DNA of 4,774 nucleotides from a virus (IMGVR_UViG_2671180846_000027), one strand, 5' to 3'. Positions 2,343 through 2,655 are shown, counted from the first letter of the stretch. Program-made: numbers and translations. Notes: generated by a model not told the origin, from the letters alone.

Positions 2343-2396
2343 TGCTGCGGGTGCTTGAGGCTATCTGCCTCGGGCATGAACACCAACGGCAGATAG

Positions 2397-2470
2397 ATAA
2401 AAGCCCCACCCGACTATAAATCGAAGTGAGGCCCCTATATGCTCGTCACATATAGATTGCCTCTTACGGA
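2397..2470 (-). ncRNA. sok: Candidate Sok-like antisense RNA (antitoxin of the type I hok system); boundaries approximate
   Basis: Minus strand across the mok start region carries a terminator-like hairpin (plus coordinates 2403-2432: GCCTCAC, 16-nt loop, GTGGGGC with one G-U pair) followed by TTTTAT (2402-2397). A minus-strand TTGACC (-35-like) lies at plus 2477-2482, but no convincing -10 at correct spacing was found. Confidence 0.3.
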
Positions 2471-2611
2471 CCGAAAGGTCAAGGAGAAGCAGGCTATGAA
2501 GCAGCAAAAGGCGATGTTAATCGCCCTGATCGTCATCTGTTNNNNNNNNNNNNNNNNNNNNNNNNNNNNNNNNNNNNNNNNNNNNNNNNNNNNNNNNNNN
2601 NNNNNNNNNNN
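2439..2611 (+). CDS. mok: mok-like in-frame N-terminal extension of hok (modulation of killing); 3' end lost in the N-run
   Basis: ATG 2439 with SD-like GTGAGG (2426-2431), reading MLVTYRLPLTDRKVKEKQA in frame into the hok ATG. Closely resembles my recollection of chromosomal MokC (MLNTCRVPLTDRKVKEKRAMKQHKAM...). Confidence 0.5.
2496..2611 (+). CDS. hok: Hok/Gef-family type I toxin, HokD-like N-terminus; CDS interrupted by a 70-nt N-run so the 3' end and stop are not visible
   Basis: SD AAGGAG (2481-2486), 9 nt before ATG 2496. The 15 visible residues MKQQKAMLIALIVIC match the recalled N-terminus of E. coli HokD/RelF. Flanking mRNA elements fit a hok locus: 5' leader hairpin GAGGC-TATCT-GCCTC (2357-2371) and 9-bp 5'/3' complementarity 2346-2354 TGCGGGTGC with 2613-2621 GCACCCGCA (tac/fbi-like). 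Confidence 0.75.
2542..2611. other. Run of 70 N: assembly gap or masked sequence inside the hok CDS
   Basis: Directly visible. The ORF-track readthrough into 2612-2711 in the hok frame is an artefact of the N's: the sequence after the gap is hok 3' UTR and terminator, not coding. Confidence 0.95.
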
Positions 2612-2625
2612 CGCACCCGCACTTA

Positions 2626-2655
2626 ACCCGCTTCGGCGGGTTTTTGTTTTTATTT
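2626..2655 (+). terminator. Rho-independent terminator at the 3' end of the hok mRNA
   Basis: Stem ACCCGC / loop TTCG / GCGGGT followed by TTTTTGTTTTTATTTT. Confidence 0.65.

What the first reader, a model, noticed from the sequence alone, without database searches (positions are those of the whole stretch)
2346..2655. hok/mok/sok-type type I toxin-antitoxin locus with intact long-range mRNA folding elements
The toxin N-terminus (MKQQKAMLIALIVIC), an in-frame Mok-like leader ORF, a hok-mRNA-like 5' leader hairpin and a 3' terminator are all present. The 5' segment TGCGGGTGC (2346-2354) is exactly complementary to the 3' segment GCACCCGCA (2613-2621), the signature of the tac/fbi 5'-3' pairing that keeps full-length hok mRNA translationally inert. 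As I recall, the K-12 hokD copy lies downstream of relBE and lacks its own regulatory region, whereas this prophage copy looks like a complete, potentially active module. Such modules can stabilise the prophage or act as abortive-infection or stress-killing devices.
Basis: partly seen in the sequence, partly recalled or inferred. Interest (0 to 1): 0.6.

Follow-up and report, generated by a model that had tools for sequence, protein, structure and literature searches.

The report
Complete hokD toxin-antitoxin prophage locus

Summary
TGCGGGTGC (2346-2354) and GCACCCGCA (2613-2621) are exact reverse complements, and each occurs once in the window. The Hok N-terminus, an in-frame Mok ORF, the leader and a terminator are all present. 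The 70 N's (2542-2611) replace about 165 real bases. In 29 independent assemblies of this locus the hidden stretch holds an intact 51-aa Hok, identical or nearly identical to K-12 HokD. With the gap filled from the closest record, the transcript folds with a 15-bp 5'-3' helix at probability about 1 (12 bp if the RNA starts at 2349 as inferred). Once the 3' end is removed it refolds to tac-ucb. The pairing recurs at a fixed place in hok loci of many genera, with one cleanly covarying pair. K-12 hokD shares sequence only from window 2482 onward; upstream it has relE. The locus lies in a PPompW-type lambdoid prophage next to the paa adhesin gene. It is annotated hokD or gef in public records, and about 10% of complete E. 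coli genomes carry this region. Sok expression and toxicity are inferred, not shown. Verdict: correct interpretation, already known, low interest. In passing: a perfect 24-bp palindrome just upstream of the hok promoter belongs to a strongly covarying dyad element otherwise embedded in phage KilA-N genes. I found no description of it.

The parts
2314..2342 (+). Putative hok promoter: -35 TTTGCT (2314-2319), 17-nt spacer, -10 TAGGAT (2337-2342)
   Evidence: The -10 box aligns with TATAAT of K-12 hokC. It matches only 7 of 12 consensus positions and was not picked up by the consensus scan. Inferred; a weak hok promoter would fit what I recall of R1.
2349..2360 (+). tac element (GGGUGCUUGAGG), predicted 5' end of the hok mRNA
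   Evidence: Rfam model position 1 aligns to 2349. It pairs with fbi in the full-length fold and with ucb in the 3'-truncated fold. It is conserved in hokW and hokC.
2351..2377 (+). Metastable 5' hairpin of the nascent transcript (GUGCUUGAGGC-UAUCU-GCCUCGGGCAU)
   Evidence: The first 30 nt fold into this hairpin at -18.8 kcal/mol. The same feature is described for R1 hok (PMC9841398).
2401..2407 (+). ucb (AAGCCCC), the anti-SD of mok and the alternative partner of tac
   Evidence: In the full-length fold its GCC (2403-2405) pairs with AGG of the mok SD (2429-2431), and neighbouring bases 2407-2409 pair with GUG 2425-2427. In the truncated fold 2401-2407 pairs with 2349-2356, which is the Rfam consensus structure.
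2393..2447 (-). Predicted Sok antisense RNA, about 55 nt: GACGAGCAUAUAGGGGCCUCACUUCGAUUUAUAGUCGGGUGGGGCUUUUAUCUAU
   Evidence: It is positioned by alignment with annotated sokW (phage 933W) and sokC (K-12). The predicted fold has a 9-nt single-stranded 5' tail, one stem-loop and a U-rich tail. Expression is not shown.
2454..2482 (-). Putative Sok promoter: -35 TTGACC (2482->2477), 17-nt spacer, -10 CAATCT (2459->2454)
   Evidence: It aligns with the TTGCCT-17-TAAYCT boxes of 12 other hok loci and with TTGACC-17-CACTCT of the hokC type. It falls below the threshold of the consensus scan. Inferred.
2428..2541 (+). mok: SD GAGG (2428-2431) and ATG 2439, in frame with hok. In relatives it reads through to the hok stop (70 aa).
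   Evidence: mokC/hokC and mokW/hokW are annotated with the same in-frame layout and shared stop. PPompW records annotate this 70-codon frame as 'gef'.
2481..2541 (+). hok SD (AAGGAG, 2481-2486), ATG 2496 and the 15 visible codons MKQQKAMLIALIVIC
   Evidence: K-12 hokD is identical from 2482 onward.
2542..2611 (+). Mask: 70 N standing for about 165 bases. These are the remaining 36 hok codons plus the stop, then 54 nt of 3' UTR ending in CCTCAA (the inner half of fbi).
   Evidence: Length and content come from relatives. The flanks are 100% identical in L001 and L003. In 29 assemblies the stretch is 165 nt (25), 164 nt (3) or 167 nt (1), and Hok is intact in all 29.
2613..2618 (+). Visible half of fbi (GCACCC), pairing with G2349-C2354. 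Bases 2619-2621 (GCA) complement 2346-2348, which probably lie upstream of the transcript start.
   Evidence: Pair 4 of this helix covaries across loci: C-G 16, U-A 8, U-G 2, none unpaired.
2625..2651 (+). Intrinsic terminator AACCCGCTTCGGCGGGTT followed by TTTGTTTTT
   Evidence: Terminator scan on the identical sequence of L001; window coordinates.
2280..2303 (.). Perfect 24-bp palindrome CCGATATGGGAATTCCCATATCGG, ending 10 nt upstream of the hok -35 box. It is not a known hok element; it is listed because it abuts the module.
   Evidence: It belongs to a covarying dyad family otherwise found inside KilA-N genes. Any relation to hok is unknown.

Best explanation
This is a complete hok/mok/sok type I toxin-antitoxin locus of the hokD allele. 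It lies in the nin region, between replication gene P and antiterminator Q, on the same strand, in a PPompW-type lambdoid prophage.

Proposed mechanism, taken from the R1 hok paradigm (all steps are predictions or inferences; none is shown by experiment):
1. A weak promoter (2314-2342) makes an RNA of about 395 nt starting near 2349 (inferred).
2. While the RNA is being made, its first 30 nt form a metastable hairpin that hides tac (predicted fold).
3. In the finished RNA, tac (2349-2360) pairs with fbi just before the terminator, and ucb holds the mok Shine-Dalgarno. The RNA can then neither be translated nor bound by Sok (predicted fold; the helix recurs across loci with covariation).
4. Slow 3' trimming removes fbi. 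tac then pairs with ucb (2401-2407), which frees the mok SD and the Sok target loop (predicted fold).
5. Sok, a roughly 55-nt antisense RNA made from 2447 leftwards, pairs with this processed RNA and leads to its destruction (inferred from R1 and hokW-sokW).
6. If Sok supply stops, translation from mok/hok yields the 51-aa membrane toxin (inferred; the identical HokD coding sequence is reported toxic when expressed).

The biological role in this prophage is not established.
For: Identity:
- Rfam RF01794 scores 103.9 bits over the whole leader.
- Pfam HOK_GEF scores 82.9 bits on the filled protein.
- The filled Hok is identical to K-12 HokD.
- PGAP annotates the gene as hokD; phage records call it 'gef: phage maintenance protein'.

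RNA design:
- The full-length fold has the tac-fbi helix at base-pair probability 0.998-1.0.
- The fold energy is -166.3 kcal/mol against -121.1 +/- 5.9 for shuffles, z = -7.7.
- Truncated RNAs switch to tac-ucb, and the nascent RNA forms the metastable hairpin.
- The tac-fbi duplex is found at a constant position in most of 57 distinct loci from Escherichia, Kluyvera, Photorhabdus, Sodalis, Buttiauxella, Enterobacter and others, with compensated variants such as GGGCGCUUGAGA / UCUCAAGCGCCC.
- One pair covaries cleanly, and sliding the register destroys the pairing.

Sok:
- Its position and architecture match annotated sokW and sokC.
- Its promoter boxes align across loci.

The hidden part is intact in 29 of 29 independent assemblies.

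Literature:
- The tac/fbi, ucb/dcb and metastable-hairpin model (PMC9841398).
- A prophage hokW-sokW locus is a working type I system (PMC8621323).
- HokD is listed among control sequences previously shown to be toxic, and only three other sequences of the 45 tested were non-toxic (bioRxiv 10.1101/2025.08.07.668861).
Against: - The window's own masked bases are unknown.
- Both promoters are weak by consensus and were missed by the scan. The Sok -10 box (CAATCT) lacks the usual first T.
- No transcript data were examined.
- Native chromosomal hokA, hokB and hokC loci are reported not to give post-segregational killing or rifampicin activation (summarised in the bioRxiv preprint). Structural completeness therefore does not prove activity.
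- Covariation in tac-fbi rests on one clearly covarying pair; the other five pairs of that helix are invariant or vary only at the end.
- The own-versus-cross duplex energy test did not discriminate.
- The PPompW record shows no annotated lysis genes and has several pseudogenes. The lysis-helper role shown for hokW in Sp5 may therefore not apply.
Confidence: 0.85

Rival explanations
1. The locus is structurally complete but physiologically silent. It would be a conserved relic that is transcribed but never yields enough Hok to matter, as reported for the native chromosomal hokA, hokB and hokC loci.
For: The bioRxiv Hok survey summarises earlier work in which native chromosomal hok loci gave no post-segregational killing and no rifampicin activation. 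Both promoters here score weakly. The prophage looks partly decayed: it has frameshifted genes, an IS element and no annotated lysis genes.
Against: All cis elements are intact, and the ORF is unbroken in 29 of 29 assemblies, with amino-acid changes at only two positions. That pattern fits purifying selection. The related prophage locus hokW-sokW is functional (PMC8621323).
Confidence: 0.25
2. In this particular genome the copy is broken inside the masked stretch, so it is a pseudogene that retains intact regulatory flanks.
For: The 70 N's hide about two thirds of the ORF and half of fbi, and nothing in the window itself excludes a lesion. No record in the E. coli collection is 100% identical to the whole window; the best is 99.4%.
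Against: The unmasked flanks 2161-2541 and 2612-2773 are 100% identical to records with an intact hokD. All 29 independent assemblies have an intact ORF.
Confidence: 0.05
3. The 9-nt complementarity is a coincidence, and hok here is simply a passenger ORF of the early phage operon with no dedicated RNA switch.
For: A single 9-mer match across about 400 nt is not rare by itself. Three of the nine bases probably lie upstream of the transcript start.
Against: - 1 of 2000 shuffles reaches the duplex energy.
- The helix extends to 12-15 bp.
- It recurs at a fixed position across genera with compensated changes.
- The alternative tac-ucb pairing and the metastable hairpin are also present.
- The Rfam model match is strong.
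Confidence: 0.02

Closest known systems
hokD (relF) of E. coli K-12, cryptic prophage Qin
   Same: The Hok protein is identical in the closest record. The DNA matches with only two mismatches from 14 nt before the ATG through the ORF, fbi and the terminator. The downstream genes are the same (rem-like, ydfU/DUF968) and both lie in a DicA/DicC-type lambdoid prophage.
   Different: K-12 has relB-relE immediately upstream. It lacks everything left of window 2482: the hok promoter, tac, ucb, the mok start, the Sok target and the Sok promoter. This locus has all of them. Other genomes also carry the relE-truncated form (L009, L014).
hokW-sokW of Stx phage 933W / Sakai prophage Sp5
   Same: The leader, the ORF (92% protein identity) and the 3' UTR through fbi are closely similar. 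Mok is in frame, and sokW is annotated at the corresponding place. It has been shown experimentally to be a type I system (PMC8621323).
   Different: hokW has about 20 extra nt in the Sok and target hairpin region and a different sequence there, so its Sok probably has a different specificity. Its terminator also differs. In 933W the locus is near the right end of the genome, on the opposite strand in the record, not in the nin region.
hokC (gef)/mokC/sokC of E. coli
   Same: The leader length is similar (153 versus 150 nt), Mok is in frame, and the Sok promoter has the same variant form, TTGACC-17-CACTCT versus CAATCT.
   Different: Hok is 82% identical. In K-12 the hokC 3' end, including fbi, is replaced by IS186. 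It is a chromosomal locus, not a prophage locus.
hok/mok/sok (parB) of plasmid R1
   Same: It has the same set of elements and the same logic: tac/fbi, ucb, a metastable hairpin, a Sok target and 3' processing (PMC9841398). R1-like loci pair (U)GGCGCUU with AAGCGCC at the same place.
   Different: Hok is about 43% identical. By my recollection, mok is out of frame with hok in R1; I did not check this here. R1 hok/sok has been shown to stabilise plasmids, which has not been shown for this locus.

Membership tests
hok/mok/sok type I toxin-antitoxin family | Toxin ORF of about 50 aa belonging to the Hok/Gef family (Pfam PF01848) | tested here: met
   The filled protein scores 82.9 bits against a cutoff of 22. 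In the window itself only the first 15 codons are visible; the rest comes from relatives with 100% identical flanks.
hok/mok/sok type I toxin-antitoxin family | Overlapping mok leader ORF with its own Shine-Dalgarno upstream of hok | tested here: met
   GAGG at 2428-2431 and ATG at 2439, in frame with hok. The layout matches annotated mokC and mokW.
hok/mok/sok type I toxin-antitoxin family | Conserved structured 5' leader of the hok mRNA | tested here: met
   Rfam RF01794 scores 103.9 bits against a gathering score of 59, over model positions 1-157 of 157. An nhmmer profile finds the same leader in 77 matches across the fetched hok loci.
hok/mok/sok type I toxin-antitoxin family | tac-fbi pairing of the mRNA 5' end with a segment just before the terminator | tested here: met
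   Pair probability is 0.998-1.0 in the filled transcript. 1 of 2000 shuffles reaches the duplex energy. The duplex sits at a fixed position in most of 57 distinct loci. One pair covaries (C-G 16, U-A 8, U-G 2) and slid registers fail. Half of fbi lies under the mask.
hok/mok/sok type I toxin-antitoxin family | Alternative tac-ucb pairing after 3' truncation, and a metastable hairpin in the nascent RNA | tested here: met
   Predicted folds of RNAs ending at filled positions 2680-2700 pair 2349-2356 with 2401-2407. The first 30 nt form the hairpin. This is in silico only.
hok/mok/sok type I toxin-antitoxin family | Sok antisense RNA with its own promoter, overlapping the mok start region | tested here: inconclusive
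   The architecture and position fit annotated sokW and sokC, and the boxes align across loci. However, the promoter scores 7 of 12 and was not found by the scan. No expression data were examined.
hok/mok/sok type I toxin-antitoxin family | Toxicity of Hok and its repression by Sok | not testable with these tools
   Literature only: HokD is listed among control sequences previously shown to be toxic (bioRxiv 10.1101/2025.08.07.668861), and hokW-sokW is functional (PMC8621323).
hokD allele specifically | Sequence identity and synteny with E. coli K-12 hokD | tested here: met
   The protein is identical. The DNA is near-identical from 2482 through the terminator, and the same downstream genes follow. 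PGAP names it hokD.

The most novel reading that the evidence does not exclude
The perfect 24-bp palindrome that ends 10 nt upstream of the hok -35 box (2280-2303) is a solitary copy of a dyad-symmetric element that I found described nowhere in the library. Selection on the DNA, not the protein, maintains this element at one fixed site inside phage KilA-N genes. The most novel reading still open has two parts. First, the element is the recognition site of KilA-N DNA-binding proteins. Second, the copy here puts the hok promoter, or read-through into it, under the control of a KilA-N protein supplied in trans, for example by an incoming phage. That would make this toxin module phage-responsive.
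Probability: 0.12. Interest if true: 0.7.

Novelty: already known. Interest (0 to 1): 0.2.

Why it matters
For the hok locus itself, little is new. It confirms that the K-12 hokD 'orphan' is a relBE-truncated derivative of a complete prophage module that circulates widely in pathogenic E. coli, and it gives exact coordinates for every regulatory element of that module. Practically, it shows that this window's mask shortens the sequence, so ORF arithmetic across it is invalid. The side observation could matter more. A strongly covarying dyad element embedded in KilA-N genes across phages of Proteobacteria, Bacteroides and cyanobacteria, with solitary copies elsewhere, would be a new cis-element family if it is truly undescribed. 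It would also give a handle on what KilA-N proteins recognise.

Tried and rejected
- Own-versus-cross duplex energies between tac and the 3' UTRs of other loci did not discriminate (own mean -17.9, cross mean -16.3 kcal/mol). tac varies little and GC-richer partners score better. I replaced this test with per-pair counts.
- An 8-sequence Hok alignment was too divergent for the search for related loci. A 4-sequence alignment worked.
- The consensus promoter scan found neither the hok nor the Sok promoter. Both are placed by alignment only.
- I tested whether the palindrome in the window is the remnant of a KilA-N gene. It is not: the tblastn matches come only from the palindrome's own coding potential and have stop codons on both sides.
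- I recalled that HK022 Roi binds a site within its own gene and asked whether this explains the KilA-N dyad. The HK022 KilA-N hit lies after the lysis genes, so it is not roi, and it has no dyad at the homologous site. The library gave nothing usable on Roi. I dropped this except as an unverified analogy.
- The Rfam hit to snoRNA sR55 at 3772-3833 (23.9 bits, below the gathering score of 35) is a chance match.

Full report
**1. The observation**

The window has a run of 70 N at 2542-2611. TGCGGGTGC (2346-2354) is the exact reverse complement of GCACCCGCA (2613-2621), and each occurs once in the window. ATG 2496 opens MKQQKAMLIALIVIC. ATG 2439 is in frame with it, 57 nt upstream. Rfam family RF01794 matches 2349-2498 on the + strand over its whole length, at 103.9 bits against a gathering score of 59 (E 1.3e-23). 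Despite the family name 'sok', the model starts at the mRNA 5' end and ends at the hok ATG. It therefore describes the sense-strand leader. A terminator-like hairpin with a T run lies at 2625-2651.

**2. The mask**

The 613 bases 2161-2773 match E. coli chromosomes at 100% identity but span 708 bases there. The whole window spans 4869 bases rather than 4774 in all 30 best records. So the 70 N replace about 165 bases.

In the closest record (NZ_CP074998.1, 99.4% over the window, flanks identical) the hidden stretch holds the remaining 36 hok codons, a stop codon and 54 nt of 3' UTR ending in CCTCAA. The 51-aa product is identical to K-12 HokD. An O157 record differs by T17I.

Among 29 independent assemblies of the same locus, the stretch is 165 nt in 25, 164 nt in 3 and 167 nt in 1. 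The indels are confined to the 3' UTR, and Hok is intact in all 29. The window's own bases remain unknown.

**3. Context**

Public annotation of the matching records gives this gene order: replication protein P, a DUF1627 gene, a fimbrial pseudogene, paa (AcfC-family adhesin), hokD, two small hypothetical genes, a DUF968 gene, rusA and Q. All are on one strand. Pfam agrees for the Paa protein (solute-binding-protein family SBP_bac_11), DUF968 and RusA.

In phage records the element is 'PPompW'. This is a lambdoid prophage integrated at ompW in O145:H28 and other STEC (bioRxiv 10.1101/2020.11.04.367953). There the 70-codon mok-hok frame is annotated 'gef: phage maintenance protein'. About 555 of 5426 complete E. 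coli genomes carry this region nearly full-length, and 4711 have some hok-like match.

**4. Relation to K-12 hokD**

In MG1655 the order is relB-relE-hokD-rem-ydfU inside prophage Qin. Alignment shows homology to this locus starting at window 2482, which is 14 nt before the hok ATG. From there it runs with only two mismatches through the ORF, fbi and the terminator. Identity is lower through the downstream genes, about 86% over the whole 1119-nt alignment.

Left of 2482, K-12 has relE. It therefore lacks the hok promoter, tac, ucb, the mok start, the Sok target and the Sok promoter, whose -35 box ends at 2482.

The identical HokD protein occurs with three upstream architectures:
- this 150-nt leader
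- a 172-nt hokW-like leader (L006, L007, L010, L012, L013, L015)
- the relE-truncated form (L009, L014)

**5. RNA design**

The minimum-free-energy and centroid structures both close the molecule. GGGUGC (2349-2354) pairs with GCACCC (2613-2618), and UUGAGG (2355-2360) pairs with CCUCAA, the last six masked bases. One C is bulged (window 2612), and pair probabilities are 0.998-1.0. The fold is far more stable than shuffles (-166.3 versus -121.1 +/- 5.9 kcal/mol, z = -7.7, 0 of 100 shuffles as good). In that fold, the GCC of ucb (2403-2405) pairs with AGG of the mok SD (2429-2431).

When the 3' end including fbi is removed, the predicted fold switches. 2349-2356 then pairs with 2401-2407, which is the Rfam consensus structure. 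The first 30 nt alone form the metastable hairpin. These are the states described for R1 hok (PMC9841398).

The start at 2349 is inferred. It rests on the alignment of TAGGAT (2337-2342) with the TATAAT box of hokC, and on Rfam model position 1.

**6. Is the 5'-3' pairing more than chance?**

- Shuffling the 3' UTR reaches the real duplex energy (-21.1 kcal/mol) in 1 of 2000 trials.
- I fetched 80 hok loci from many genera and located the leader with an nhmmer profile, which gave 77 matches. In most of 57 distinct loci, the best duplex of the first 12 nt with the locus's own 3' UTR lies 45-58 nt after the stop.
- Variants of the duplex include GGGCGCUUGAGA / UCUCAAGCGCCC (Photorhabdus), GGGUGCUCUGGA / UCUG-C-GAGCACCC (Sodalis) and (U)GGCGCUU / AAGCGCC (R1-like).
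- On an alignment of 26 distinct tac+fbi pairs, pair 4 is C-G in 16, U-A in 8 and U-G in 2, with none unpaired. The other pairs hardly vary. Slid registers drop from 94% paired to 27-66%.
- A cross-locus energy test was uninformative.

The support is real but rests on few variable positions. It agrees with what I recall of the covariation published for this family in the 1990s.

**7. Sok**

By alignment with annotated sokW (933W) and sokC (K-12), the antisense RNA would start at 2447 and run to about 2393. The predicted fold has a 9-nt free 5' tail, one long hairpin and a U-rich tail. The tail is complementary to the loop of the hairpin that holds the mok AUG.

The presumed promoter on the minus strand is TTGACC-17-CAATCT. 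It aligns with TTGCCT-17-TAAYCT in most loci and with TTGACC-17-CACTCT in the hokC type. It falls below the threshold of the consensus scan. The Sok and target hairpin differs in sequence and length from hokW, so cross-regulation between the several hok loci of one genome is unlikely. That last point is an inference.

**8. Function**

What the module does in this prophage cannot be decided here. hokW-sokW in Sp5 is a working type I system that speeds lysis and doubles phage release after mitomycin C (PMC8621323). R1 hok/sok stabilises plasmids and reduces T4 plating (same paper). Native chromosomal hok loci were reported inactive in killing assays. The PPompW record has no annotated lysis genes between Q and terminase, and it has several pseudogenes and an IS element. 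That argues against a lysis-helper role and fits an addiction or exclusion role, or none.

**9. Novelty**

hok loci, their RNA switch, their abundance in prophages (bioRxiv 10.1101/2025.08.07.668861) and this very gene's annotation as hokD or gef are all public. The verdict is 'already known'.

**10. Side finding: the palindrome at 2280-2303**

CCGATATGGGAATTCCCATATCGG is a perfect palindrome ending 10 nt upstream of the hok -35 box. Homology of other hok modules to the window starts just to its right, at about 2307-2320. Exact copies occur in 52 viral and 45 metagenome stretches, with 36 distinct flank contexts.

Many contexts lie inside KilA-N-domain genes, at GC contents from 27% to 64%, always at one domain position. 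The reading frame there is usually [AST]DMGIPIS[EG]. In two genes of another KilA-N subfamily the 24-mer sits at that same position in a different frame, reading RYGNSHIG.

Exact-match searches are biased, so I fetched KilA-N homologues independently of the DNA sequence.
- In 35 distinct coding segments, synonymous choice is almost frozen at the palindrome codons: GAT 34/34, ATA 31/31, TCG 31/31, CCC 31/35 and ATT 33/35. Neighbouring conserved residues use 2-6 codons.
- Across the 64 distinct segments of both samples, the site shows 33 distinct combinations of 24-mer and encoded peptide. Dyad symmetry is kept by Watson-Crick compensations that change the encoded peptide. Examples are CCGATATCGGAATTCCGATATCGG, CCGATGCGGGAATTCCCGCATCGG, GTGATATGGGAATTCCCATATCAC and CCGTTAGGCAGAAATGCCTAACGG.
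- The formal count on 31 rows gives 8 of 10 pairs with changes on both sides, covering 32 cells. The covariation score is 0.326 against 0.096 +/- 0.019 in shuffles (0 of 500 reach it) and at most 0.074 in slid registers.
- G-U pairs are rare, which favours a DNA-level dyad (a binding site or cruciform) over an RNA hairpin.

Named carriers include Proteus phage vB_BPM-V3, E. coli phage vB_EcoS-673R7, Bacteroides LoVEphage and a Nodularia cyanophage.

The window's copy is solitary and non-coding. PPompW has no KilA-N gene and no second copy. The matching E. coli KilA-N gene is in only 137 of 5426 genomes. A second prophage context also places the palindrome upstream of a hok promoter, about 35 nt further from the promoter than in the window. 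Other hok loci lack it.

Rfam has nothing at this position, and the paper library holds neither the sequence nor a KilA-N palindrome. What the element does, and whether it bears on hok, is unknown.

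Noticed in passing
window 2280-2303: The perfect 24-bp palindrome CCGATATGGGAATTCCCATATCGG ends 10 nt upstream of the hok -35 box. Exact copies occur in 36 unrelated flank contexts in viral and metagenome contigs, many at one fixed site inside KilA-N genes (GC 27-64%). In unbiased KilA-N samples, synonymous codons at the site are nearly frozen and the dyad is kept by Watson-Crick compensations that change the peptide. 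8 of 10 pairs covary; the score is 0.326 against 0.096 in shuffles (0 of 500 reach it). It is not in Rfam, and I found no paper on it.
   Followed up: yes
window 2542-2611: The run of 70 N does not preserve length. It stands for about 165 bases in all close relatives, so coordinates to its right are shifted by -95 relative to the real genome. The ORFs that the ORF listing reads through the N's (for example 2439-2711, 90 aa) are artefacts.
   Followed up: yes
window 2482 (breakpoint); L002 (K-12 Qin): K-12 hokD homology starts at 2482, the outer edge of the putative Sok -35 box. Upstream, K-12 has relE plus 57 nt of unrelated spacer. The identical HokD protein also occurs behind a 172-nt hokW-like leader in other genomes.
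   Followed up: yes
masked part (from relatives), Tyr47 codon of hok: The hidden sequence contains ...CAGCTTACGAACCTG..., that is, a TACG motif at the Tyr codon. K-12 hokC, hokD and hokE mRNAs are reported to be A-to-I edited by TadA at this codon, changing Tyr to Cys (PMC5630033; gap sequence).
   Followed up: partly
window 1150-2192: paa (1402-2160, AcfC-family adhesin, Pfam SBP_bac_11) looks like a moron inserted into the nin region. The gene is 44% GC and is preceded by a 28%-GC stretch (1150-1401), against about 50% around them. It has its own terminator-like hairpin at 2167-2192.
   Followed up: partly
window 1-1241: The DUF1627 gene appears frameshifted in the window (overlapping ORFs 142-396 and 339-542) and is annotated as frameshifted in the closest record. 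The following fimbrial-protein gene is a pseudogene with a frameshift and an internal stop in relatives.
   Followed up: no
window 2665-2694: A promoter-like site, TTGAAG-18-TAGAAT (9 of 12), lies just after the hok terminator and upstream of the rem-like 86-aa ORF (2774-3034). It was found on the identical sequence of L001.
   Followed up: no
window 2349-2498: Rfam family RF01794, named 'sok antitoxin', matches the hok sense strand from the mRNA 5' end to the hok ATG. In practice it models the hok leader, not the antisense RNA.
   Followed up: partly
L263 (PPompW_132418, whole prophage): The annotated prophage has no lysis genes between Q and terminase; tRNA genes and ISEc20 lie there instead. 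It also has a frameshifted exonuclease gene and a frameshifted portal gene, and it carries T3SS effector genes (espO, nleG, espM). It looks defective.
   Followed up: no
window 3384-4439: The DUF968 protein (YdfU-like, 351 aa) also matches the putative HNH nuclease family HNHc_6 in its C-terminal part, residues 260-327.
   Followed up: no
L047:1248 (Photorhabdus cinerea hok locus): A near-copy of the palindrome with 2 mismatches (GCGATATGGGAATTCCCATAACGG) lies about 400 nt downstream of a Photorhabdus hok gene. I did not examine its context.
   Followed up: no
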